A DNA stretch of 14,765 nucleotides, from contig DUKR01000077.1 in the NCBI GenBank assembly GCA_013329175.1, forward strand, positions 1-14,765, written 5' to 3'. The position numbers and the translations under genes are program-made. The stretch is from Candidatus Woesearchaeota archaeon (GTDB lineage: Archaea; Nanobdellota; Nanobdellia; Woesearchaeales; UBA11716). The notes below the pieces were generated by a model. That model was given only the letters and a program-made list of their open reading frames with translations. It did not search any database and had not been told where the DNA came from. Shown here in pieces: positions 1 to 12,124 of this stretch. The first letter of the stretch is position 1. The number at the start of each line of letters is the position of its first letter.

Positions 1-7
1 AAGAATT

Positions 8-730
8 CTAAGGGGATCTGGAGGCACCCTCTATAAGTTGTGCTTTGATATCTTCAATTTGTTTCTTTATATCCTGCTCATCACTTTCACATAACTTATC
101 AATTCTGGCTTCCATTTTCGTCTCGCCGTCAATGGCTCCATGCTCCCGAGAAAACAATTCATTTAACTCTTTAAGCTTTTGCTTCTCTTGCTCAACAGCC
201 TTTATTTCATCCTTGAGGAGAGGCAGGAGTTGCTCTTTAATTCCTTTCCGCAAATTATTTATGTTTGTGAGAATGCTGGATAATGACTCAATGCTGGCAG
301 ATATTTGCTTTTTCCACTGGCTTCCCCTAAACCATCTGCCGAATTTATCGCCGTATTTTTTTATGCCAAGGCCATGCAATGCTCTAAGCTCAACAAGCAA
401 CTCATCGTGAGCAATTCGTACAAGAGTAGTAATCTCTTCCATTTGCTGCTTGGCAAGTGCATCAAACCTAGCCATTCGCTCCCTTCTCAATGCAACAAGC
501 TTAGCAAGATCCTCCATGAGTTTTCCCTCATTACTGCTAAACTGGAACTCACGCTGTGCGTTATTAATCTCTTTCTCGGTTAAGATCCTCAACTTGCTGA
601 AATTGCTCAAACCTTTTTGTATATCATACGCCCTACCATTTACCCTTTGTTCAACATCCCTTCTTGCATACACAAGCCTCCCCGCCTTAGTGGGATAATA
701 GTTGCGAAGATGCTTACTCCACCATGCCAT
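8..730 (-). CDS. Hypothetical coiled-coil protein of 240 aa. Helical and rich in charged residues, with no TM segment. Its start codon overlaps the stop of the upstream small basic protein gene (ATGA).
   Basis: The ORF is intact across 723 nt. The sequence has long heptad-like stretches (KEQLLPLLKDEIKAVEQEKQKLKELNELF), which I infer are coiled coil. The 4-nt overlap with 730-960 indicates an operon. I recognise no family. Confidence 0.55.
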   Translation of the reverse strand: MAWWSKHLRNYYPTKAGRLVYARRDVEQRVNGRAYDIQKGLSNFSKLRILTEKEINNAQREFQFSSNEGKLMEDLAKLVALRRERMARFDALAKQQMEEITTLVRIAHDELLVELRALHGLGIKKYGDKFGRWFRGSQWKKQISASIESLSSILTNINNLRKGIKEQLLPLLKDEIKAVEQEKQKLKELNELFSREHGAIDGETKMEARIDKLCESDEQDIKKQIEDIKAQLIEGASRSP

Positions 731-960
731 TATCTCTTCGCCTCTTGCTCAGCATGGGCTGCCATAGCCTTCAATTTAGAAAGAGCGCCAATAAAATTCG
801 TTATATGCTTGCACAACTCCTTTTGCTTCTTCGCAGAATGGTGCCTCGACAACGCCAGGGCCCGGTCAACAAAAGGCTCAGCCTTGTCGTGAAGGGAGTC
901 TATTTTTTTGATAAGATGCCTCTTTTTTGCAGAAGAAGTCTTTTTGCTCTTCGTAGGCAT
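730..960 (-). CDS. Small basic protein of 76 aa. It has a Lys/Ser-rich N-terminal tail (PTKSKKTSSAKKRHLIKK) followed by helices. It may bind nucleic acid.
   Basis: The ORF starts at the ATG at 960, right next to a TATA-like box (plus-strand 983-994, read on the minus strand as AAAATATATTAA) placed for leaderless transcription. It is translationally coupled to 8-730. The composition is histone-tail-like and basic. No family recognised. Confidence 0.45.
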   Translation of the reverse strand: MPTKSKKTSSAKKRHLIKKIDSLHDKAEPFVDRALALSRHHSAKKQKELCKHITNFIGALSKLKAMAAHAEQEAKR

Positions 961-1329
961 TCACTTTTTTTCACTGTGCAGATTAATATATTTTTCGGTG
1001 GCCAAGAAAATAAAAAAAAGTATCTGTTAATAAATAAACATATTAAGTATTAAATTTAATGCCGCATTGATAAAAAAATAAATATAAAAAATAAGATTTC
1101 CATTTATAAATACTAAACCTTATTAGTTATAGCGCTTATCTAGATAACATGGAACACTTATTTAAAATAAAACTAGATATATTATTATTTAATAAAAATA
1201 ATTATTAATTAACCAAAAAAGCTAGCGTATTTATTAATGAACGTTTTTTATTAATATTATTTAGTATAACTAAAAAATCAAAAACCTTAAATAGTAATTA
1301 TAATAATAGATAGATAAATTTACTAACAA
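961..1329. promoter_or_regulatory. Divergent, extremely A/T-rich intergenic control region. It has TATA-like boxes about 27 nt upstream of both flanking start codons. It carries a perfect 12-bp palindrome TTATCTAGATAA (1136-1147). TAGATA recurs at 1141, 1174, 1307 and 1311. TTATTAAT occurs three times (1203-1210, 1231-1238, 1248-1255).
   Basis: Read directly from the sequence. The stretch AATTATAATAATAG at 1296-1309 is centred about 27 nt before the ATG at 1330. The stretch TTAATATATTTT at 983-994 (read on the minus strand) is centred about 27 nt before the ATG at 960. This spacing matches archaeal TATA-box/BRE architecture and leaderless transcripts. Confidence 0.4.
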
Positions 1330-1872
1330 ATGAGTAAAAAAATATCCACTTACACCATTGCAGGGCTCTTTACCCATGATTTCTCCAGAAGATATTATCT
1401 TAAAGAGATGGCTGATGCCCTTGGAAAACCTCATCAGACCCTCAAGCCCTATATCGCTGAGCTTGTGAAGCAAAGCATACTTATGGAGGAGAAGCGTGGG
1501 AATCTTCTCGAATACACACTCAACACAGGAAGTCCGTTGGTGGTAGCGTACTTGGCCATCGCAGAGCAAGAGCAAGCGTTAGAGCAAGCGAAAAAGGAGG
1601 GCTTCCTTGTTGAGCTGTTCTCTCTTGGAAGGGAGATGAAGGGGGCGATCATCGCCGCACCCATAGACAAAGAGCGATGGCACGTGGTGCATGTCGGGGG
1701 TGGGGTAATCAATAGGGAACACCCCCGATTTTCTTTTTCTCACTATGGGCAATTTGAGGAGATTCCCTTGGAGGAACTGAAAGGGCTCTATCGCGTTCAC
1801 GTGATATTCAGGGGAGTTGAAGAGGTTGTCAGCGAGTTTGTAAGGAGGTATGCACTGCATGGAATCGCCTAA
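1330..1872 (+). CDS. Hypothetical protein of 180 aa. The N-terminus looks like a winged helix-turn-helix (MADALGKPHQTLKPYIAELVKQSILMEEKRGNLLEY). The C-terminal roughly 90 aa are an unknown domain. I propose it as a candidate transcriptional regulator of the downstream operon.
   Basis: Intact ORF with probable leaderless start. The N-terminal residue pattern resembles MarR/ArsR-type wHTH recognition helix plus wing (inference from memory, not searched). The stop lies 14 nt inside the next gene. Confidence 0.5.
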   Translation: MSKKISTYTIAGLFTHDFSRRYYLKEMADALGKPHQTLKPYIAELVKQSILMEEKRGNLLEYTLNTGSPLVVAYLAIAEQEQALEQAKKEGFLVELFSLGREMKGAIIAAPIDKERWHVVHVGGGVINREHPRFSFSHYGQFEEIPLEELKGLYRVHVIFRGVEEVVSEFVRRYALHGIA

Positions 1873-3316
1873 GGATGAACGCAGAAAGGCAATGCCTGCT
1901 GTAACCTTCCTGCTGCTCATGGCGCTGGCCTTCATCGCAACGGTGCCAGAGCTATCTCTTGCTGCCACTGATGACGGATTGCTTGGAGTGATTGAGCCCA
2001 TCAGCAACCTTTTTGGGCCTATCATTGAACAGCTGAATTCAGTATGGGGGGGAAGTCCGGACGACTCAGCAATCTTTGTTGCCAAATTCGTGCTCTGGAT
2101 ACTTTTGTTTGCTTTACTCTACTACCCCTCAAACATGATTTTCAAGGATGCTGGCAAGGGAGTCAAGGTAGCCATTCCTTTTGTGCTTGCGCTGCTGGGC
2201 ACTGCGCTGATGCCTGCAGAGATCCTCATCAACGTCATGCAGACCTATGCGCTTGCCGGAGCTTTAATCCTGTGGATAATACCGATAGCCGGGACATGGT
2301 TCCTCATGCACAGGGTGCCGCAGGAGGGTGCATGGAAATTTTTACGCCTCATCCTTTACATCATCATCATTTACCTGTTGATGAACATTAGTGAATCAAT
2401 TACTTTCATGCTTGGCGATCTGCCTGAGTGGCTAAGCTATCTTAATCTTGTCATCGGCATCGTCACCATTATGTTCCTCAAGGAGTTGCTTACTATTTTC
2501 AGAGGTTCTGAAGCAGGGGGGGATGGAGGAAGTGGGGGTGGCGGCCTCTTTAACTGGTGGAAGAAAAAAATACCTTCCAGCCCTCAGGCCTTACCAGATG
2601 AAGTTGCAACGGCCCTCCAGGGAGCACAGAAGGCAGAGAAGCTGAGCAAAAAAGAGCAATATCTGCTCCAAGAAATCGAAAATCTTGAAAAACGGGAGAT
2701 TACCAAAACCGAAATGATAATTAATGATATCAACAAAATTGAGTCGGCTTTGCGAACTGGAAAACTAGATGAGCCTGTCAAGACAACCCTTGACAGTATG
2801 GCACGCTACTACAATGAAACAAGAACCATTGAGGATTATATTGAGCGTGAATTTAATCAGGTTCTAAACGATCTTGAACAGGAATATCAAGCGTTACGTC
2901 CACAGAAAGATCTTGCTAAGAGATTAATCAAAGTTGCCAACATAAAATTCCCCTTGAAGGCAGAAAAAGTCAAAAGGTACATTTCCACTATCAATAAGGA
3001 TATCACTAATTATATTCGCCAAATAAGAGAAAAAATAGAACTATATCAAGGAAAGCTAAAACGCCAGTTATCCCTCTTTAGGCAATTCATGCAGCTGGCA
3101 TATCAGCAACTTAATGGATTTGGCAATAGGGGTGCGGCACTAAGCTATCTCAATGATGCAAAAACTACAATGAATCTCATTCATGCTGACTTAGAAGGCA
3201 AGTTAAAGCCACTTACTGAGAAAATAAAAAATGACGTAGGAGGGGTTATCAGAAAGATTAAAGCGATGGAAAATGGAGACAAGAAGCTATTGCTAGGTAA
3301 AATAAACAGGTTTTGA
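1859..3316 (+). CDS. Exported polytopic membrane protein of about 485 aa. It has a Sec signal peptide (cleavage likely after SLAA), about 5 TM helices, a Gly-rich linker (GSEAGGDGGSGGGG) and a roughly 230-aa cytoplasmic coiled-coil tail. It is a paralog of 3328-4329.
   Basis: The ORF track gives 1850. I prefer the ATG at 1859 because a perfect SD AAGGAGGT (1842-1849) lies 9 nt upstream. The ATG at 1892 is also possible. Hydrophobic segments: FVAKFVLWILLFALLYY, VAIPFVLALLGTALMP, ALAGALILWIIPIAGTWFLM, LRLILYIIIIYLLMNI, LVIGIVTIMFL. The C-terminal half is charged and heptad-like with no Pro or Gly runs. Confidence 0.7.
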   Translation: MESPKDERRKAMPAVTFLLLMALAFIATVPELSLAATDDGLLGVIEPISNLFGPIIEQLNSVWGGSPDDSAIFVAKFVLWILLFALLYYPSNMIFKDAGKGVKVAIPFVLALLGTALMPAEILINVMQTYALAGALILWIIPIAGTWFLMHRVPQEGAWKFLRLILYIIIIYLLMNISESITFMLGDLPEWLSYLNLVIGIVTIMFLKELLTIFRGSEAGGDGGSGGGGLFNWWKKKIPSSPQALPDEVATALQGAQKAEKLSKKEQYLLQEIENLEKREITKTEMIINDINKIESALRTGKLDEPVKTTLDSMARYYNETRTIEDYIEREFNQVLNDLEQEYQALRPQKDLAKRLIKVANIKFPLKAEKVKRYISTINKDITNYIRQIREKIELYQGKLKRQLSLFRQFMQLAYQQLNGFGNRGAALSYLNDAKTTMNLIHADLEGKLKPLTEKIKNDVGGVIRKIKAMENGDKKLLLGKINRF

Positions 3317-3327
3317 GGTGCAGATAG

Positions 3328-4329
3328 ATGGTCATGGGAAAAAGCAAATCGAAAAAAAGAGGAGCAGCCAAATGGATAAGAATTGTAGCTGGAACAACTA
3401 TCTTATTCACTCTGTCAATTCCTTCAGCACTTGCCGCAACAGGCGACGTATCCTATGACTTAGGCTCAGTGCTCTACCGCATCATGGGCTGGCTCTTTGT
3501 TGATTTCTCTGACTCTGCCGGAAGCCTGCTCTATGAATTCTATCTCAAGTTTGCCTTGTTTGTGCTGGTCTTCGCCCTCTATTTCTTTGCAGCTACCAAA
3601 GCATTCAAGGGCGATGAGCACAAGAGCATCAGGATAACCATTGCCTTTGTTTTTGCCCTGCTCAGCGTTGCGCTCATTCCTCATCCCATCCTTGCTTCCA
3701 TTGCAGAGGGCTACAAGCTTGTCGGAACCGTTGTTTTCTTCCTGATTCCCGCTATTGGCTTTATCCTGCTCAACCATTATGCCTTTTCAGTCAAGGCGCG
3801 GGCGTACTATGGGGTGAAGGCCATCGTCTACTATGTCATTGCCATGCTCTTCCATAACATGTCAGCAGCAGGAGCTTCCTTTGCCTTTAATTTTCAGCAG
3901 CTTTCAAGCTTTGCTGAAGTCATTTTCATCTTTCTTGCAATTGCCAATCTCTTCATGGCGCTTACCTCAGGCGACGGAGTGGAGGGAGAGGAGGAAGGTG
4001 CTGGAAAATATGATGGCAGCAGCCCCATCTGGAAAGCGCTTGGAGGGCATGAGGATGGCCATGATGATAAAAAGGTGAAGCATGCGGAAAAGGAGGATGT
4101 TGACCATGAAGATGAGGCAAAGAAAAGAAAGCGGGAAGAGGCAGCTGAAGACTTAAAGACGCTGGAAGGCATCAGGGAAAGGATACGCTCGGAATTTAAC
4201 CATCTGGTGACTGCTCTGGATGAAACTGAAAATGACGCAAGAGAAAGGCTCAAGAGGCTTGCAGAGCGCATACGTGAGCTTGATGCAATACAGCGGAGGA
4301 TTAATGCATTGTCCCAGCAGCAAGCATGA
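3328..4329 (+). CDS. Exported polytopic membrane protein of 333 aa. It has a Sec signal peptide (ALAA|TGD), 4-5 TM helices, an acidic His/Asp/Glu/Lys-rich linker and a short cytoplasmic coiled-coil tail. It is a paralog of 1859-3316.
   Basis: SD GAGGTG at 3315-3320 lies 7 nt before the ATG and overlaps the upstream stop. Alignable blocks with the upstream gene: SDSAGSLLYEFYLKFALFVLVFALYFF vs DDSAIFVAKFVLWILLFALLYY, and FKGDEHKSIRITIAFVFALLSVALIPHPIL vs FKDAGKGVKVAIPFVLALLGTALMPAEIL. Both have an LIP..G...L.H motif after TM3. Confidence 0.7.
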   Translation: MVMGKSKSKKRGAAKWIRIVAGTTILFTLSIPSALAATGDVSYDLGSVLYRIMGWLFVDFSDSAGSLLYEFYLKFALFVLVFALYFFAATKAFKGDEHKSIRITIAFVFALLSVALIPHPILASIAEGYKLVGTVVFFLIPAIGFILLNHYAFSVKARAYYGVKAIVYYVIAMLFHNMSAAGASFAFNFQQLSSFAEVIFIFLAIANLFMALTSGDGVEGEEEGAGKYDGSSPIWKALGGHEDGHDDKKVKHAEKEDVDHEDEAKKRKREEAAEDLKTLEGIRERIRSEFNHLVTALDETENDARERLKRLAERIRELDAIQRRINALSQQQA

Positions 4330-4871
4330 CCATGGCTCAGGCAACCCTTTCTCAGGTGCGCAAGGCGTATGAGCAGCTTGTACTATCCATACTCAACGAG
4401 CTAAGAAAGACTATCGAGGATCTCCAGAGGGAAAGAAAAGAGCTTGAGTACAGCCTAAAAGCAGTACTTGAAAAAATCCACGATGAAAAGTTGCAGGAGA
4501 TTTTTAATAACCTCAGTGAGGAAAAAAAAAACGAACATCGAGCAAAAGTTGAGAATTTCAAAAAGCTTCGAAGCACAGGCATAGCAGTAAGCAGGCAGGA
4601 TGAGAAAACTGCTCACACCATCCTTCGTGAAATAAGCCAAAATATAGTTGTCCTTGAGAGCATGGTAACCACGTTGACGGGCATCATGAGGGAATCAAAA
4701 AACCTGTACCATCTTGATACCAATGCATTGTATCAGGGCATTTTAGGTGTCCATGAATCCCTCAAGAAAAGAGAAAAAGTTATCCTCCAAGAGATTGAGC
4801 CGCATGTAACAAGCTTTTTTAATTACTTGGAGCAGGCAAAGATAGAGTTGCTTGCTCAGGTTAATTCCTAA
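4326..4871 (+). CDS. Soluble coiled-coil protein of 181 aa. It is a paralog of the N-terminal domain of 4885-6429.
   Basis: ATGA overlap with the upstream gene indicates translational coupling. Charged heptad-like sequence. It shares blocks with the next gene: SQVRKAYEQLVLSILNELRKTIEDLQRERKEL vs AQLKKKYEELALFIFNQIEQTITELLDERKLL, and NLYHLDTNALYQGILGVHESL vs ALYNLNTNELYSKIMLVHDAI. Confidence 0.65.
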   Translation: MTMAQATLSQVRKAYEQLVLSILNELRKTIEDLQRERKELEYSLKAVLEKIHDEKLQEIFNNLSEEKKNEHRAKVENFKKLRSTGIAVSRQDEKTAHTILREISQNIVVLESMVTTLTGIMRESKNLYHLDTNALYQGILGVHESLKKREKVILQEIEPHVTSFFNYLEQAKIELLAQVNS

Positions 4872-4884
4872 AGGAAACACTATC

Positions 4885-6429
4885 ATGGCAGACCAGCAAC
4901 TGGCACAGCTCAAGAAAAAGTATGAGGAGCTTGCTCTCTTTATCTTTAATCAGATTGAGCAAACGATAACGGAATTACTGGATGAGCGAAAGCTTTTGCA
5001 GCAGAAGGGAAAGGCTGGCATAACCATGCTGCATGTAAACAAAAAGGCAGAAGCGATTGCTTTGAAGGCAAAAATAGCTCTTTCTGCTGATATTCAACAG
5101 CGTTATGATGCTGCTTTGCAGCAATTTGATGCACTTTTGAATAAGGCAACCATTCTTGAGCATCAGGAAGAGCACGCAGTTAAAACCATTCTGCAAAGGC
5201 TTGATACTGAGATTGCTGAACTTCAGGCGTTGGCTAGTCAGGTCACTGCAGCCCATCAAACGAGACCTGCGTTGTATAACCTTAACACAAACGAGCTCTA
5301 TAGTAAAATTATGCTTGTCCATGATGCAATAACCAAGCAGCAGGAGCACGAGCAGAAGTTTAGAGCAGCAAGACAAGAATTTGAACAAGAGCTTGGCCAA
5401 AAAATTCATGAAATTGAAGCTATCCTGAGTGAGAAAGCTATTGCTACTATTGCAACTCCAGTAGTACAAGGTAATACTATTACTACGTCTCAGGGAAGTG
5501 TTCAACCATTAGCCATAGCTCCTGGAGGGCAAAGTGGAGTTATTGGACATGATGAAAAAGATTCAGTCGTGCAGACTGTAAAAATCGACCTGAACAATCT
5601 TGAGCATGCTGATAACATCATTCAATTCCAGCGCAGTGACAGGGAAGTTAGGAAAGCTTTTCAAGTGCTGGAAAAGAAAAGAATGGAAGGTCAGTTGCTG
5701 AAGGCAAAGAAAGCTATAAAGGCAGTCACCACTAAAATTAATATGTATGGACCAAAATACAACAGTGGAGAGTATAAACTGGCATTTATGACAAATGTTG
5801 TCGACCAGTATATGGAGTATATGTATGGGGTACTGTATAGCTATCTTCTTCATGTGGATGAAGCATCGGAATTTATTGCAACCTTATATAGCAGGCTGGA
5901 GACTATTGAAAGCACTAAGCTCACTAAATTTCAAAAAGAGAAAGTTGCAATTATTGCTCACCTCGTGAAGATTGCAGGAGAAACAGACGACAAAAGACCA
6001 GGAAACCTAGGAAAAAAAGGTAAAATTCCTCGGGAATTGCCTGCAAAGATTGATAGCTATGTTACTAATGAACTAAAGATTCTTGAACAAGATACACCAC
6101 CAGGCAGAATCCAAGTAGATATTGACAGGTTACAACTCTTAATTCTTCAGCTTGAAAAAAAACTAAAGAAAGCTATGCATTTAGCTGAACAAAGGATAAA
6201 AGCCTCTTACTTTGCATGGACAAAACGTGGCTATCAAGGGGCTGTAGGGCATCTGAATACCCTCAACATCCTTGTTGATGAGAAAATAAGGTTAGTGAAA
6301 CAAATGATGGATATTGAGCAGCAGATTAGCACAAAGCTTGAAAACCATATCTTCAATTATCTTAATGACAATAAAAAGCTAAAGGACCTTCAAAAGCTGC
6401 TAAGAAAGATACATCTTGGCGAAATTTAG
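4885..6429 (+). CDS. Coiled-coil protein of about 514 aa. The N-terminal roughly 190 aa are homologous to 4326-4871. A Thr/Gly/Gln-rich linker follows (ATPVVQGNTITTSQGSVQPLAIAPGGQSG), then a roughly 300-aa C-terminal domain of unknown function.
   Basis: The ORF track start at 4852 would overlap the upstream gene. The alignment with its paralog begins at MADQQ (ATG 4885), and AGGAAA lies 8 nt upstream, so 4885 is preferred. No TM segment. I recognise no family. Confidence 0.65.
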   Translation: MADQQLAQLKKKYEELALFIFNQIEQTITELLDERKLLQQKGKAGITMLHVNKKAEAIALKAKIALSADIQQRYDAALQQFDALLNKATILEHQEEHAVKTILQRLDTEIAELQALASQVTAAHQTRPALYNLNTNELYSKIMLVHDAITKQQEHEQKFRAARQEFEQELGQKIHEIEAILSEKAIATIATPVVQGNTITTSQGSVQPLAIAPGGQSGVIGHDEKDSVVQTVKIDLNNLEHADNIIQFQRSDREVRKAFQVLEKKRMEGQLLKAKKAIKAVTTKINMYGPKYNSGEYKLAFMTNVVDQYMEYMYGVLYSYLLHVDEASEFIATLYSRLETIESTKLTKFQKEKVAIIAHLVKIAGETDDKRPGNLGKKGKIPRELPAKIDSYVTNELKILEQDTPPGRIQVDIDRLQLLILQLEKKLKKAMHLAEQRIKASYFAWTKRGYQGAVGHLNTLNILVDEKIRLVKQMMDIEQQISTKLENHIFNYLNDNKKLKDLQKLLRKIHLGEI

Positions 6430-6435
6430 GTAACC

Positions 6436-7098
6436 TTATCGGGAAAGTTTTTTTTGAGTAATAGTAGCAGTGTATACAGGACCAGCTGACCGTGCTCCCG
6501 CTGCGCCAGTAACATAGCTTGGAATCAGTAAAGAGGAGGATGGATTATTAATGATCTCAGCAATCACTGCATTTAACTGGCTTACATTCTCTGGAAAGGG
6601 CTTGCTGGGGTCAACTTTTATAACTGCTGTGTTGCCTGCTGCATCTTGAAACATCTCTACGTTATCACCTAGTGGGACTATTGCATTAAGATACGTTTGA
6701 TCATTTGGACCTTTAATTAATTCTAGTTTAGGTCCAAGATTCTGAGCTGGACCAATTACTTGAACATAGTCAGCTGTTACCCTAAGAAAATCCGCTAAAT
6801 TATCCCTTCCTTCAACTGTGACATATTTACCTACCGTATTCCTTACTTTAAGAGCAGTGTTGTAGCCATCAGTTATAACATTCTCACCTAGCTTAGTAAC
6901 AGAGTTAGCAGCATCCCACTTATCCTCCCCATATTTAATAACACTACTTACTCCACTTACTATGTAAGGTAGGGAATAAAGGGCAAGGGCACCGGCAGCC
7001 ATAAATTTAATAATCTTGCCTGCCTTTCTTTTTGACTTTTGTGGTGCTATTAAATCTTGTAGAGTTTTGGACATTTCCATAGCAAATCCAGAAAGCAT
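6436..7098 (-). CDS. Membrane-anchored exported protein of 214-220 aa. It has a single N-terminal TM/signal anchor (IIKFMAAGALALYSLPYIVSGV) and an extracytoplasmic beta-rich domain. It sits immediately downstream of the SPFH gene.
   Basis: Intact ORF. A perfect archaeal TATA TTTATATA (minus-strand reading of 7105-7112) is centred about 27 nt upstream of the in-frame ATG at 7080 (MEMSKTL). The true start may therefore be 7080 with a leaderless mRNA, or the gene is co-transcribed with SPFH. I recognise no family; the position is analogous to NfeD partners of SPFH proteins. Confidence 0.55.
   Translation of the reverse strand: MLSGFAMEMSKTLQDLIAPQKSKRKAGKIIKFMAAGALALYSLPYIVSGVSSVIKYGEDKWDAANSVTKLGENVITDGYNTALKVRNTVGKYVTVEGRDNLADFLRVTADYVQVIGPAQNLGPKLELIKGPNDQTYLNAIVPLGDNVEMFQDAAGNTAVIKVDPSKPFPENVSQLNAVIAEIINNPSSSLLIPSYVTGAAGARSAGPVYTATITQKKLSR
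6448..6455 (+). terminator. Oligo-T tract (T8) 19 nt downstream of the stop of 4885-6429. It is a candidate archaeal intrinsic terminator. It lies inside the last codons of the convergent minus-strand gene.
   Basis: The T8 run is read directly. Archaeal RNA polymerase terminates at oligo-T tracts (established). The assignment of function here is inference. Confidence 0.3.
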
Positions 7099-7147: not shown

Positions 7148-8425
7148 TTACAGGTTTGTGGTTGTATTTTCTGCAGAATATATAGACTTTGTGGGTCTTA
7201 TAACACCCTTATTTGGACTCAGGTACGCCCCCAATTGGTTTGCAAGAGCATCAAGAACATTTCCCCCAAAATTTGTCATTTGCAAGTTTAATTTCTGCTC
7301 CTGGATCATACTGATAAGGGCTGCATACCGCCCGCCATCCTTTGCTATTTCAACACTAATCTTTTGTATTGTCTCTGCCTGTGCTTCTGCTAACTTTTTC
7401 ATTGCATTAGCATCTGCTTCCCCTTTTGTCATGATTGCATAAGCAGTGGCATCGGCATCTTTTTTTTGTGCTTCATATGTTGCTTGTGCAGCATATTTTA
7501 GCGCAGCGGCTTTAGTGACTTCTTCATCTGGAGTAATACGTTGAAAGCTCACTGAAAGAATTTCCAGTCCTAAATTGTTATATGTTTGGTTAAGCCCACT
7601 GATCATCTGATTACCAACGTTATGCTCAGCATTAATCTCATCAAACGTATGGCTCCCAATGTATTTTCTTACAAGTGCGCTTGCTTCAGCCCAGACCTGC
7701 CCTATAGGGTCGTTTGCTCCGTACAGCGCCTGCCTGACTGATTTGTAATCATCACCGATCTTTATGCTAATAACAGCATCAATGGTAGTTGAAAGCCCAT
7801 CCTTAGTTACAATGCCTTCCTCTTGCTGAAGGTCAATCTGGGTGATGCTGGTGTCAACCACATCCCACTGGGTAAAAATTGGAACCCTTAAGTGCAGCCC
7901 AGCTCCATGCATTTTTTGCTCACGCTCATTCCAAAGCATGGCAAGCCCTTTAGGAATATTCCACACAGACCATGCGTTTTCGCTGTTGTCTTGAGGAGTT
8001 GGGCTATATCCAGACAGATATTTTCCTACCTTTTGGTAGCCTCCAACTGATTGCACCACACTGTGCGCTCCATAGCCAAGAATAGCAAACGGAGCTATTG
8101 CAGAAACTGTGGAACCAATAAAGGGAAGATAGGAAGCAGGAGCAGTGGCCAACGGAGAAACTTTCCATACTGCCCATGTAGCAAGCGCCCTTAGCACAGG
8201 ATTCTGTTTCTGGGGCCTGCCAAGGGTTTTTGGTATTGCCCGCTGGTCAGGCTCAAGCATTGCTGCTGGTGAATATATGCTTTGCCAACCGGGCATTAGG
8301 CTGTTAAAATAATTTTTATGAATAAGAAGCTTTTCTGCAATAGAATCGACTACGGCTTCTAAATCACCCGCTTCAGAAGTAGTCGCCTCACCTATTCCAA
8401 CTGGTATGTACTCATCGTCTGCCAT
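7148..8425 (-). CDS. SPFH/band-7 (stomatin/prohibitin/flotillin/HflKC) domain protein of 425 aa. It has a roughly 170-aa N-terminal extension that includes a hydrophobic hairpin-like segment. The C-terminus is an Ala/Lys/Glu-rich helix.
   Basis: Core SPFH signature blocks are present: GLHLRVPIFTQWDVVDTSITQIDL, VTKDGLSTTIDAVISIKIGD, ALVRKYIGSHTFDEI and LGLEILSVSFQRITPDEEV, followed by AQATYEAQKKDADATAYAIMTKGEADANA. This is typical of the family from established knowledge. A TATA-like TTTAAATA (minus-strand reading of 8496-8503) lies upstream. Confidence 0.85.
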   Translation of the reverse strand: MADDEYIPVGIGEATTSEAGDLEAVVDSIAEKLLIHKNYFNSLMPGWQSIYSPAAMLEPDQRAIPKTLGRPQKQNPVLRALATWAVWKVSPLATAPASYLPFIGSTVSAIAPFAILGYGAHSVVQSVGGYQKVGKYLSGYSPTPQDNSENAWSVWNIPKGLAMLWNEREQKMHGAGLHLRVPIFTQWDVVDTSITQIDLQQEEGIVTKDGLSTTIDAVISIKIGDDYKSVRQALYGANDPIGQVWAEASALVRKYIGSHTFDEINAEHNVGNQMISGLNQTYNNLGLEILSVSFQRITPDEEVTKAAALKYAAQATYEAQKKDADATAYAIMTKGEADANAMKKLAEAQAETIQKISVEIAKDGGRYAALISMIQEQKLNLQMTNFGGNVLDALANQLGAYLSPNKGVIRPTKSIYSAENTTTNL

Positions 8426-9256: not shown

Positions 9257-9505
9257 ATGAGGTTTAAGGAGTATATCTCTGACAGGCCGGCAGTCATCAG
9301 GGCAGTCAAGGTTCTTGGCAACTGTGACCTCATGCTGCACATCGCAACAAAGGATGCTTCAGAGCTTCACAAGACTATCAAAGGCATCTATAAGGCATTT
9401 GTTGATATCATCACAGGCTACCAGGCATGGGGAGCCTACAAAGAGCACTTTTTCACAATCTTTCCTGCTGTTGTTTCTGACAAAGAAAATGCAGAGCAGA
9501 AGTGA
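9257..9505 (+). CDS. Small protein of 82 aa (95 aa from 9218). It has a possible beta-alpha-beta ACT/RAM-like pattern (AVIRAVKVLGNCDLMLHIATKDASELHKTIKGIY). It may be co-transcribed with pth2.
   Basis: The amphipathic periodicity is protein-like. It has the same orientation as pth2 and gpmA, with only 48 nt and no TATA box before pth2. The resemblance to Lrp/AsnC ligand-binding domains is weak and from memory only. Confidence 0.35.
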   Translation: MRFKEYISDRPAVIRAVKVLGNCDLMLHIATKDASELHKTIKGIYKAFVDIITGYQAWGAYKEHFFTIFPAVVSDKENAEQK

Positions 9506-10714: not shown

Positions 10715-12124
10715 GGATATTCATGCCGCCCATTGGCATCGTAATCGTTCACTATCATGAAGCTTTTTCTTCATTCTCCTCCGCCTCAATCCATGCGTTC
10801 CATGGCGGCTCATTCCAGAAAAACGGGCCATTACCTGGGGCTTCCTGCCACAAGCGTCGCTTCTGTTCTCTCTGTTTTTGCCAGACGTAACATTGCTATT
10901 TACAATTCCGTCATGCACTGTATAGTCCCTCATCCTTCATACACGCTCGTGCAGCGCACTGACTTTTGCCAATGGCTGCGTGCATTTCTGTCTTCAGCGT
11001 TTTTCACCCGTTACAGCAGAAAACCTGTGTGCCGTCAATTACGCGAGCATTGGCAGTGTTGTGGTGGCGAAGGTCGTGGGGGGTTGTCCCTTACGGGGGT
11101 GCGACCTCATCGTCCCGCTTCATCTCCATGCGAGCCGACGGCACACCAATGGTTTTCTGCTCGAGTGAAAAACGCTAAGGAAAACGCCAAGGCCTTCATC
11201 ACCTCCAAAGAGAAATGCAGCAACAATCGCTTCAGGAAAGTGAACAATTATGGAGAAATGCATTGATATTGTGACACCGCGATGGATTGCGTCTGCTGAC
11301 ACCTCTCCACGCATTTCGCCTATTGAATAATTGCGGCTACTGTCACATAAATACCGCAATTATCCATACTTGGCATCCCGACAAACCCTAAGCTCCGCCT
11401 CTTCGCCTGCATCAACGACAGGAGACAGGAAGAGGCAACAATGGCATCCTGCGCTCCCCCGCATCACGAGGGCTGATGTGAAGGAACTCAAGCGCTGGGT
11501 GCTAAGGCAGGGGCATGCCCGCAACATCTTCGCCACCGCAACCAGATGCATGGGCTTCTGTAACGATGAATCAAGAAGTATAGGCAGCAGGCCATCGCCT
11601 ATTGCGTACTCCTTCACTTTCTTGAAAAGCCCTGCCCGGGAGGAAGGATACAGGCTCGCTGGATAGCCATGAGTTAAGGCTTTGAGGGATATTGGCAGGC
11701 AGGCTCGTGGAAAGCTGGCATTCCCAAAAAACTCAGTAGAAAAAAAGGCATTAGCCATGCCTCCCGTCGCATCCACACTCAATTCGTAACTCCCTTCTTT
11801 TCGTTTCAGGCAATCCACTCAATGCACAATCCGAGGTAAACAAAAAAGCCTCAGCTGGCCAGCAGGGCATGTGTTGCAGCCATTGCCGCAGTGTAGCGCG
11901 CTGCACCGTCAGGCATGGAGGATGGGCGCTGGCAGCAGTGCACGACGGAATTTCCATCATCAGGATTTGCAGCACAAACAGGGGAGGGAGGAAAAATAAA
12001 GGGATGGGATGAGAAAGAAGCCACAGGCAATGAGCTTTTAGGGAATGCCTTTTCGGGAGCGATGCCCATCACAGTTACAAAGAGGCAGGCAACTTCATAA
12101 AGGTGAAGTACTACCCTATTGCCC
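10715..12124. other. A 1.4-kb region with no credible protein-coding ORF on either strand. It could be a decayed pseudogene remnant or a long structured ncRNA.
   Basis: All six frames are broken into ORFs of at most 169 aa with junk-like Cys/Arg/Ser/His-rich translations that overlap each other on both strands. The region is not A/T-rich like true intergenic DNA here. Confidence 0.3.

What the first reader, a model, noticed from the sequence alone, without database searches (positions are those of the whole stretch)
8..960. Divergently transcribed pair: Lys-rich small basic protein coupled to a coiled-coil protein
On the minus strand, a 76-aa protein with a histone-tail-like N-terminus (PTKSKKTSSAKKRHLIKK) overlaps by ATGA the start of a 240-aa coiled-coil protein. 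Both share the A/T-rich control region with the plus-strand operon, so they are probably co-regulated with it and may belong to the same system. The small protein could be a nucleic-acid-binding regulator or a membrane-surface-binding basic tail.
Basis: partly seen in the sequence, partly recalled or inferred. Interest (0 to 1): 0.55.

Follow-up and report, generated by a model that had tools for sequence, protein, structure and literature searches.

The report
Orphan two-gene helical-protein operon, Woesearchaeota
Two back-to-back genes in a groundwater DPANN archaeon look real and encode all-helical proteins (a small basic hairpin and a 240-residue helical-bundle protein), but neither has a detectable relative anywhere, so their function and their link to the neighbouring membrane operon cannot be shown.

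Summary
Both ORFs are where the finding says: p76 at 730-960(-) and p240 at 8-730(-). The junction is TAATG, a 1-nt overlap, not ATGA. The contig is from a Candidatus Woesearchaeota (DPANN) MAG from groundwater. NCBI does not annotate p76 and starts p240 at a GTG 57 nt downstream (221 aa).

p76 looks like a real gene. GC falls from 45.5% to 18% at its ATG. Its frame has the best codon score of the six. A BRE/TATA-like element is centred about 28 nt upstream. AlphaFold gives a two-helix hairpin at pLDDT 82.

Both proteins are strict orphans. They match only themselves among 5.8 billion clustered proteins, and p240 also among 1.84 billion representatives by full HMMER. Pfam, NCBIfam, PHROGs, PADLOC, PDB, phage, plasmid and viral-contig searches gave nothing significant. 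The neighbouring p485 is an orphan too. All contigs are 99.9-100% identical over the pair, so conservation and synteny cannot be tested.

The predicted folds are generic coiled-coil hairpin and four-helix bundle, not HTH, RHH or histone. An IS66 element abuts window position 1.

Best guess, at low confidence: a co-translated helical complex acting as a cytoplasmic adaptor, not a DNA-binding regulator. Interest is low to moderate.

The parts
730..960 (-). p76: a 76-aa basic protein (pI 10.3). It has a Lys/Ser/Thr-rich N-terminal tail of about 8 residues, followed by a predicted antiparallel two-helix coiled-coil hairpin (H9-40, H43-75).
   Evidence: ORF. Codon score is best in this frame. GC steps down at the start codon. 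AlphaFold single-sequence model, pLDDT 82. Heptad a/d hydrophobic occupancy 0.78/0.89 against 0.22/0.29 elsewhere. Matches only its own cluster. Not annotated by NCBI.
8..730 (-). p240: a 240-aa soluble all-helical protein with four long helices. It has aromatic/basic patches at residues 1-15 and 119-141 and an acidic stretch at 201-220. An alternative GTG start at window 673 gives NCBI's 221-aa form.
728..732 (-). TAATG stop/start junction: the p76 stop TAA (732-730) overlaps the p240 ATG (730-728) by one base. This arrangement suggests translational coupling.
   Evidence: Read directly from the sequence. Overlapping junctions are the norm for operons in this window: -14, -4, -4.
982..998 (-). 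BRE/TATA-like element CCGAAAAATATATTAAT, centred about 28 nt upstream of the p76 ATG. No Shine-Dalgarno sequence lies between them, so p76 is a candidate leaderless first gene.
   Evidence: Upstream sequences. The same CCGAAAA-TATA-about-24-nt-ATG layout precedes the small ORF of the adjacent IS66 element. Archaeal TATA boxes lie about 28 nt upstream of the transcription start (PMC8553660), with an A-rich BRE (PMC5316973). The word CCGAAAA is not enriched in the window, so this is a positional argument only.
961..1329 (.). 369-nt spacer of 18.2% GC between the divergent p76 and p180 genes. It contains the candidate promoters of both. A TATA-like TTATAATA lies at about 1297-1306, centred about 28 nt upstream of the p180 ATG.
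   Evidence: Composition. No motif or palindrome exceeds chance. No Rfam or tRNA hit.
1..7 (.). The last unique bases 3' of the p240 stop codon. A multi-copy IS66-family element begins immediately to the left of window position 1 (GTATGTATTAAGCTCCC... in gene orientation).
   Evidence: Contig ends. The same sequence occurs in four other contexts with different flanks. The IS encodes a 438-aa transposase (PF03050, E = 3e-38) and a DUF2080 small ORF (E = 1.3e-7).
1330..1872 (+). p180: the divergent neighbour and first gene of the plus-strand operon. Listed as context only. It is a possible winged-helix regulator.
   Evidence: Weak matches of residues 13-80 to PADLOC PDC-M05A (E = 7.5e-4) and of residues 22-63 to CasR (E = 5.9e-3). 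No Pfam or PDB hit.

Best explanation
p76 and p240 form a genuine two-gene transcription unit in a groundwater Woesearchaeota (DPANN) archaeon.

Transcription probably starts from a BRE/TATA-like promoter about 28 nt upstream of the p76 ATG, giving a leaderless or near-leaderless mRNA. p240 is probably translated by coupling at the TAATG junction, so the two proteins would be made together.

Both are taxonomically restricted orphan proteins made only of long amphipathic helices. p76 is a basic coiled-coil hairpin with a short Lys-rich tail. p240 is a soluble protein of four long helices, with aromatic/basic patches and an acidic C-terminal part.

The most likely mechanism is inferred, not shown. 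The p76 hairpin docks onto p240, or the two co-oligomerise, into a helical-bundle complex. That complex would act as a cytoplasmic structural or adaptor component. It possibly sits at the membrane, next to the cytoplasmic coiled-coil tails of the neighbouring membrane proteins p485 and p333. It would not act as a sequence-specific DNA-binding regulator.

Shown: gene-like sequence statistics, helical predictions, orphan status and genomic context. Inferred: transcription and translation coupling, complex formation, location, and any link to the operon.
For: Gene reality:
- GC steps from 45.5% to 18.2% at the p76 ATG.
- The p76 frame has the best codon score of six frames, equal to neighbouring genes.
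- A chance ORF of this size appears in 3.5% of shuffles.
- The BRE/TATA-like element is centred at about -28 (PMC8553660, PMC5316973).
- The stop/start overlap is typical of operons in this genome.
- Independent gene callers call both genes.

Folds:
- p76 is a hairpin at pLDDT 82, with heptad a/d positions 78-89% hydrophobic.
- Its best, non-significant structural neighbours are hairpins that work by pairing: ESAT-6/CFP-10, designed heterodimers, Rop.
- Neither protein has a predicted membrane helix.
- There is no DNA-binding family signal.

Context:
- p485 and p333 are paralogous polytopic membrane proteins with coiled-coil tails.
- p181 and p525 are paralogous soluble helical proteins.
- An SPFH/Band 7 protein lies nearby.
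- So the neighbourhood is rich in membrane and coiled-coil proteins.
Against: - There is no evolutionary evidence at all. No homologue exists, and the population is effectively clonal here, so purifying selection cannot be shown.
- The only three SNPs in the pair all change the protein: p76 R14S, p76 F30C, and a nonsense change truncating p240 to 195 aa in one contig. This is compatible with weak constraint.
- NCBI's pipeline does not call p76 and uses a different p240 start.
- The p240 model has low confidence (pLDDT 61). Amphipathic helices are easy to predict and say little about function.
- Complex formation, membrane association and any connection with the operon are untested.
- There is no paralogy with operon proteins.
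- TATA-like words are common in an 18% GC spacer.
Confidence: 0.35

Rival explanations
1. One reading: p76 is a small basic nucleic-acid-binding protein that regulates the divergent promoters. Under this reading the pair is co-regulated with the plus-strand membrane/coiled-coil operon and belongs to the same system.
For: - p76 has pI 10.3 and net charge +12, with +8 in the first 20 residues.
- It sits next to an unusually long (369 nt), 18% GC spacer shared with the operon.
- The spacer holds a 12-bp palindrome, TTATCTAGATAA, and five TAGATA words that could be operators.
Against: - No HTH, RHH or histone signal appears even at Pfam E <= 10.
- The predicted fold is two 32-33-residue heptad helices, unlike known small DNA-binding folds.
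- The palindrome and motif do not exceed chance, p about 0.15 and 0.12.
- The operon has its own, weakly supported, winged-helix candidate, p180.
- The putative core promoters are about 310 bp apart.
- Co-occurrence cannot be tested because there are no homologues.
Confidence: 0.15
2. The pair is a real but independent accessory module, unrelated to the operon. It would be strain-specific cargo of unknown role, for example an addiction-type or conflict-type pair, or a remnant of a mobile element. It happens to lie between an IS66 insertion and the operon.
For: - It is strictly strain-restricted, with no relatives.
- A multi-copy IS66 element lies directly 3' of p240.
- It has its own promoter-like element, and there is about 310 bp between the putative core promoters.
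- It shares no paralogy with the operon.
- A truncated p240 allele exists in the population.
- A small upstream protein plus a larger partner is a layout shared with many two-gene modules.
Against: - No match to any PADLOC defence model beyond a coiled-coil composition hit (LmuB, E = 0.0075).
- No PHROG, phage, plasmid or IMG/VR relative.
- No integrase, tRNA or repeat boundary is seen.
- The pair lies outside the IS boundary.
- Its GC3 (0.44-0.53) is close to that of housekeeping genes (0.52-0.60).
- The operon genes are orphans too, which fits one shared lineage-specific island as well as it fits independence.
Confidence: 0.25
3. p76 is not a gene. The 231 nt are a 5' leader or untranslated remnant, and the only gene is p240 starting at the GTG, as in NCBI's 221-aa annotation. 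Alternatively, both ORFs are decaying, non-functional sequence.
For: - NCBI does not annotate p76 and starts p240 at the GTG, which is preceded by a strong GGGGAGG.
- No homologue exists.
- Both p76 SNPs are non-synonymous, and p240 carries a nonsense variant in one contig.
- An ORF of this length arises in 3.5% of shuffles.
Against: - The sharp GC boundary falls at the p76 ATG, not at the p240 start.
- The codon score in the p76 frame equals that of neighbouring genes and beats the other five frames.
- The promoter-like element is positioned for the p76 ATG.
- The hairpin is confidently predicted with clean heptads.
- The stop/start overlap fits the operon style of this genome.
- The ORF is intact in every contig examined.
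Confidence: 0.15

Closest known systems
Small helical-hairpin proteins that function by pairing into four-helix bundles (WXG100 ESAT-6/CFP-10, PE/PPE pairs, Rop)
   Same: p76 is of similar size and is predicted as an antiparallel two-helix hairpin with a heptad seam. It is encoded immediately upstream of, and probably co-translated with, a helical partner. ESAT-6/CFP-10, EsxB and Rop are among its top structural neighbours, though none is significant.
   Different: Foldseek E-values are all above 1. There is no W-x-G motif at the turn, no sequence similarity, and no secretion system in the context. The host is an archaeon. The PE/PPE comparison rests on my own knowledge, not on a test.
Long antiparallel four-helix-bundle or coiled-coil domains (STAT coiled-coil domain, syntaxin Habc/SNARE bundle, SPX, ClyA-type)
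PspA/Vipp1/ESCRT-III membrane-remodelling proteins
   Same: Similar length (220-260 aa), all-helical, a long N-terminal helical hairpin, an aromatic/basic N-terminus and an acidic C-terminal region. The neighbourhood holds membrane and SPFH genes. This resemblance was recalled from memory and served only as a lead.
Small basic archaeal or bacterial DNA-binding proteins (ribbon-helix-helix such as ParG/CopG, histone fold, HTH)
   Same: Small size, high pI and a flexible basic N-terminal tail. ParG is also 76 aa with such a tail (own knowledge). The gene lies next to a long AT-rich spacer.
   Different: No beta-strand or HTH is predicted, and the helices are 32-33 residues long. There is no Pfam or NCBIfam hit to any RHH, HTH or histone family.

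Membership tests
Ribbon-helix-helix / HTH / histone-fold DNA-binding proteins (for p76) | Significant match to a family profile (Pfam RHH_*, HTH_*, CBFD_NFYB_HMF and similar) | tested here: not met
   Pfam at E <= 0.1 and at E <= 10 gives no such family; the only hit is DUF3896, E = 0.31. NCBIfam gives only a spurious D-aminoacyl-tRNA deacylase fragment at 18 bits against a cutoff of 272.
Ribbon-helix-helix / HTH / histone-fold DNA-binding proteins (for p76) | Characteristic secondary structure: an N-terminal beta-strand plus two short helices (RHH), three short helices (HTH), or a long central helix flanked by two short ones (histone fold) | tested here: not met
   The AlphaFold model has two equal long helices, H9-40 and H43-75, no strand, pLDDT 82.
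WXG100 / ESAT-6-like hairpins (for p76) | W-x-G motif at the hairpin turn, and a significant structural or sequence match | tested here: not met
   p76 has no W-x-G and no Trp at all. The best Foldseek hit, 1wa8_B, has E = 1.1 and TM 0.38.
PspA/Vipp1/ESCRT-III (for p240) | Match to PF04012 (PspA_IM30) or PF03357 (Snf7) | tested here: not met
   Absent from the Pfam results at E <= 10.
PspA/Vipp1/ESCRT-III (for p240) | ESCRT-III fold: alpha1-alpha2 hairpin with alpha3-alpha5 packing | tested here: inconclusive
SMC/Rad50/LmuB-type coiled-coil ATPases (for p240; weak AAA_23 and LmuB hits) | Walker A/B ATPase head domains flanking the coiled coil | tested here: not met
   There is no G-x4-G-K-[ST] motif. 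The AAA_23 hit (E = 0.004, 18.2 bits, cutoff 27) and the LmuB hit (E = 0.0075) cover only coiled-coil regions.
Known anti-phage defence or toxin-antitoxin modules | Match of either protein to a PADLOC, Pfam or NCBIfam model of a defence or TA component | tested here: not met
   PADLOC gives nothing for p76 and only the LmuB coiled-coil hit for p240. Pfam and NCBIfam give none.
IS66 element accessory genes (TnpA/TnpB-like) | Location inside the element's boundaries, moving together with it | tested here: not met
   The IS boundary (GTATGTATTAAGC...) lies 7 nt after the p240 stop. The four other copies of the IS have unrelated left flanks.
Same system as the plus-strand operon (p180-p485-p333-p181-p525) | Co-occurrence or synteny in independent genomes, or paralogy or interaction with operon proteins | not testable with these tools
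   No homologues of p240, p76 or p485 exist in the databases. All contigs come from one population. Paralogy was tested and is absent.

The most novel reading that the evidence does not exclude
p76 and p240, the divergent operon (a possible winged-helix regulator, two paralogous polytopic membrane proteins with cytoplasmic coiled-coil tails, and two paralogous soluble helical proteins) and the adjacent SPFH gene together form one Woesearchaeota-specific apparatus. It would be a membrane-anchored coiled-coil assembly built entirely from protein families with no known relatives, for example a cortical scaffold for cell shape, division or attachment to a host cell in an episymbiotic DPANN archaeon. 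In this reading p76-p240 is its soluble adaptor pair.
Probability: 0.1. Interest if true: 0.6.

Novelty: new member of a known kind. Interest (0 to 1): 0.22.

Why it matters
If the pair really is part of a membrane-anchored coiled-coil apparatus, it would give a handle on the cell biology of DPANN archaea, where attachment, division and envelope organisation are poorly understood.

As the evidence stands, this is one more example of the strain-restricted, all-helical hypothetical proteins that fill DPANN genomes. The useful outcomes here are practical:
- p76 is a probable unannotated gene in the NCBI record.
- The p240 start is ambiguous.
- The contig ends at an IS66 junction.
- Neither synteny nor homology can currently say anything about function.

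The novelty label means 'another taxonomically restricted helical orphan pair'. It does not mean membership of any named family, because every family tested was not met.

Tried and rejected
**Sequence homology**
- Word-indexed search of 5.8 billion proteins for p240, p485 and p76: self only.
- Full HMMER of p240 against 1.84 billion representatives: self only.
- Pfam, PHROGs, NCBIfam and PADLOC: nothing above noise.
- PDB sequence and profile searches for p240, p76, p180, p485 and both paralogue alignments: nothing.
- tblastn of p240 against phages and plasmids: none.
- IMG/VR scans for p240, p180, p514 and p76: none.
- GTDB genome scans with two exact DNA patterns: no match.

**Conservation and selection**
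- I hoped to use strain variants. All contigs are 99.9-100% identical over the pair and carry only three SNPs there.
- The apparent second-strain 'variants' of p333 and p181 are only different start calls.

**Structure**
- afdb50 was unavailable.

**PspA/ESCRT-III idea.** No profile or fold support; rejected as membership and kept only as a loose analogy.

**RHH idea for p76.** No strand is predicted and there is no profile hit.

**Paralogy and duplication.** There is none between the pair and the operon, none inside p240, and p76 resembles no part of p240.

**Operator motifs in the spacer.** TAGATA x5 and TTATCTAGATAA are not significant after correction. No k-mer is enriched.

**Foreign-island idea from GC.** GC3 of the pair (0.44-0.53) is near that of housekeeping genes, and there is no integrase or tRNA. 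Not supported.

**Bacterial promoter and terminator scan.** Uninformative for an archaeon.
Full report
**1. What is there**

The ORF listing and direct reading confirm two minus-strand ORFs at the stated coordinates: p76 (730-960, 76 aa, MPTKSKKTSSAKKRHLIKK...) and p240 (8-730, 240 aa). The junction reads AGA-TAA-TGG in gene orientation. The p76 stop (732-730) and the p240 ATG (730-728) therefore overlap by one base as TAATG, not ATGA. Overlapping junctions are the usual operon style in this window: -14 at p180/p485, ATGA at p333/p181, and ATGA at AI-2E/AMP phosphorylase. The pair faces the plus-strand operon (p180, p485, p333, p181, p525/514) across a 369-nt spacer (961-1329) of 18.2% GC. That is the longest and most AT-rich intergenic region in the window; the others are 27-47% GC.

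**2. Source and context**

- Exact look-ups place the sequence in groundwater metagenomes and in two NCBI TPA MAGs named Candidatus Woesearchaeota archaeon. The window equals the 14,765-bp contig with locus tags HA361_03665 onwards. A second MAG contig, DUHB01000102.1, is identical over window 1-5085.
- Archaeal markers in the window agree with this: AMP phosphorylase (TIGR03327, E = 4e-173) and Pth2.
- NCBI annotates p240 as a 221-aa protein starting at the GTG at window 673, and does not annotate p76. Other pipelines call both genes.
- Both candidate p240 starts have SD-like elements: GAGG at -15..-12 for the ATG, and GGGGAGG at -10..-4 for the GTG.
- Every contig carrying the pair breaks 7-150 nt past the p240 stop. 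The cause is a multi-copy IS66-family element whose end (GTATGTATTAAGCTCCC...) starts 7 nt after the stop codon, exactly at window position 0/1. The same element occurs in four other contigs with unrelated left flanks. It encodes a DUF2080 small ORF and a 438-aa DDE_Tnp_IS66 transposase. The native 3' neighbour of p240 is therefore unknown. The pair lies outside the IS.

**3. Is p76 a gene?**

For:
- GC falls from 45.5% in the ORF to 18% at its ATG.
- Under a codon model trained on the other genes of the window, the p76 frame scores 0.197 bits per codon. That is the best of six frames and the same as p240 (0.188), p180 (0.176) and p181 (0.182).
- Only 3.5% of shuffles of window 701-1000 give an ORF this long.
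- CCGAAAAATATATTAAT (982-998, minus strand) looks like an A-rich BRE plus TATA box centred about 28 nt before the ATG, with no SD in between. This is the geometry expected for a leaderless archaeal mRNA. TATA boxes lie about 28 nt upstream of the transcription start (PMC8553660), with an A-rich BRE (PMC5316973). The small ORF of the IS has the same layout.
- AlphaFold predicts a hairpin from a single sequence at pLDDT 82, with clean heptads.

Against:
- There is no homologue and no NCBI annotation.
- Both population SNPs in p76 are non-synonymous (R14S, F30C).

I judge p76 probably real, at about 80-85%.

**4. Relatives**

None were found.
- p240 matches only itself in the word-indexed 5.8-billion-protein search, in a full HMMER scan of 1.84 billion representatives, and in IMG/VR, phage and plasmid searches.
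- p76 matches only its own cluster, even at E <= 1, and nothing in IMG/VR.
- The operon protein p485 is likewise an orphan. p180 and p514 have no IMG/VR relatives.
- Pfam, NCBIfam, PHROGs, PADLOC and PDB give only sub-threshold coiled-coil noise: AAA_23 at 18 bits against a cutoff of 27, and LmuB at E = 0.0075.
- Thirteen contigs compared over the pair region are 99.9-100% identical there. Three SNPs are seen in total, one of them a nonsense change that truncates p240 to 195 aa in L011.
Selection cannot be measured either.

**5. What the proteins look like**

p76:
- pI 10.3 and net charge +12, with no membrane helix.
- About 8 disordered Lys/Ser/Thr-rich residues, then helices 9-40 and 43-75.
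- Heptad a/d positions are 78-89% hydrophobic.
- Foldseek finds no significant match. The top neighbours are pairing hairpins (ESAT-6/CFP-10, designed heterodimers, Rop, EsxB), not DNA-binding folds.
- It has no W-x-G motif.

p240:
- pI 9.4 and soluble. Aromatic/basic patches at residues 1-15 (MAWWSKHLRNYYPTK) and 119-141 (GLGIKKYGDKFGRWFRGSQWKK). An acidic stretch at 201-220.
- AlphaFold gives four long helices at low confidence, pLDDT 61.
- Foldseek finds nothing below E = 0.046.
- There is no Walker motif, no internal duplication, and no similarity to p76.

**6. Relationship to the operon**

- Inside the operon, p485 and p333 are paralogues in their N-terminal signal-peptide-plus-polytopic domain (E = 4e-17). 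p181 is paralogous to the N-terminus of p525 (E = 4e-18).
- Neither p76 nor p240 is related to any of them, by blastp or hhalign.
- Simple hydropathy suggests a cleaved signal peptide (conserved LAAT-D) plus about five membrane helices in p485 and p333. That would put their coiled-coil tails in the cytoplasm with p76, p240, p181 and p525. This is an inference and only.
- A TATA-like word is also centred about 28 nt before the p180 ATG, so the two putative core promoters are about 310 bp apart.
- The spacer shows no significantly enriched word or palindrome.
- p180 has a weak winged-helix-like match and is a competing candidate regulator.
- The link between the pair and the operon thus rests on adjacency and shared orphan status.

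**7. Interpretation**

The best-supported reading is a genuine, co-translated pair of lineage-restricted helical proteins that assemble with each other. They would serve a structural or adaptor role, possibly at the membrane with the neighbouring coiled-coil-tailed membrane proteins (confidence 0.35). The rivals are:
- a DNA-binding regulator role for p76 (0.15);
- an independent strain-specific accessory module beside an IS (0.25);
- p76 not being a gene, or the pair being non-functional (0.15).

None can be excluded with sequence data alone. The decisive data are transcript and peptide evidence, multimer prediction, and simple binding assays.

**8. Comparison with known systems, and verdict**

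Functionally, the nearest analogies are hairpin-plus-partner helical assemblies (WXG100, PE/PPE, Rop-like) and generic four-helix-bundle adaptors. Membership of each named family that I tested was not met or was inconclusive: RHH/HTH/histone, WXG100, PspA/ESCRT-III, SMC-like, defence/TA modules, and IS66 accessory genes.

Strain-restricted all-helical hypothetical proteins are, to my knowledge, common in DPANN genomes, so the finding is not surprising to a specialist. Interest is 0.22. The most novel reading not excluded is an all-orphan, membrane-anchored coiled-coil apparatus that includes this pair. I put it at about 10% probability, and it would merit about 0.6 if true.

Noticed in passing
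window 1 (left edge); L001 10731-10869; L012-L015: A multi-copy IS66-family element abuts the window's first base. It carries a DUF2080 small ORF and a 438-aa DDE_Tnp_IS66 transposase. It explains why every assembly breaks 7-150 nt after the p240 stop. Just inside the IS end is a sequence (CCCTCTAAGAATTCTT) that closely resembles the flanking target (CCCCTTAGAATTCTT).
   Followed up: yes
window 1859-3316, 3328-4329, 4326-4871, 4852-6429: The plus-strand operon contains two paralogue pairs. p485 and p333 share a signal-peptide-plus-polytopic membrane domain (E = 4e-17) followed by coiled-coil tails. p181 matches the N-terminal 160 residues or so of p525 (E = 4e-18). p485 has no relatives in 5.8 billion proteins. 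A weak PADLOC hit of the p485 tail to ZorA (E = 0.007) is probably coiled-coil composition.
   Followed up: partly
window 5144-5720 (middle of p525): Nearly all sequence variation between population variants is concentrated here (L003-L005, L016 against the window): about 30-40 differing positions per contig, substitutions plus small indels. Flanking genes are identical or nearly so. This is a local hypervariable linker in an otherwise clonal locus.
   Followed up: partly
window 10715-12124: A 1410-nt stretch at 51% GC, which is coding-like, lies between the His_Phos_1 and AMP phosphorylase genes and has no convincing gene. Its ORFs are at most 169 aa and have no Pfam hit. It has no tRNA and no Rfam family; the only Rfam hit is a chance-level C/D-box match (E = 0.71). 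It could be a pseudogene remnant, unknown genes or an unrecognised RNA.
   Followed up: partly
window 145 (L011): One groundwater contig carries a G>T change (gene orientation) that turns p240 codon 196 (GAG) into TAG, giving a 195-aa product. Another cluster member (P0001) has an in-frame change that gives 239 aa. Both p76 SNPs (919, 872) are non-synonymous.
   Followed up: yes
window 1136-1147, 1174-1179, 1307-1316: The spacer holds a perfect 12-bp palindrome, TTATCTAGATAA, and five TAGATA words. They are plausible operator candidates for p180 or p76 but are not statistically enriched (p about 0.15 and 0.12).
   Followed up: yes
window 7148-8425 (-) and 6436-7098 (-): An SPFH/Band 7 protein (E = 5e-20) has a 160-residue N-terminal extension. 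It is followed by a single-pass membrane protein with no family match. Both converge on the end of the plus-strand operon. NfeD-type partner not identified.
   Followed up: no
window 9257-9505 (+): An 82-aa protein matches only the Lrp/AsnC ligand-binding (RAM) domain (PF01037) and has no HTH. It is a stand-alone RAM-domain protein upstream of Pth2.
   Followed up: no
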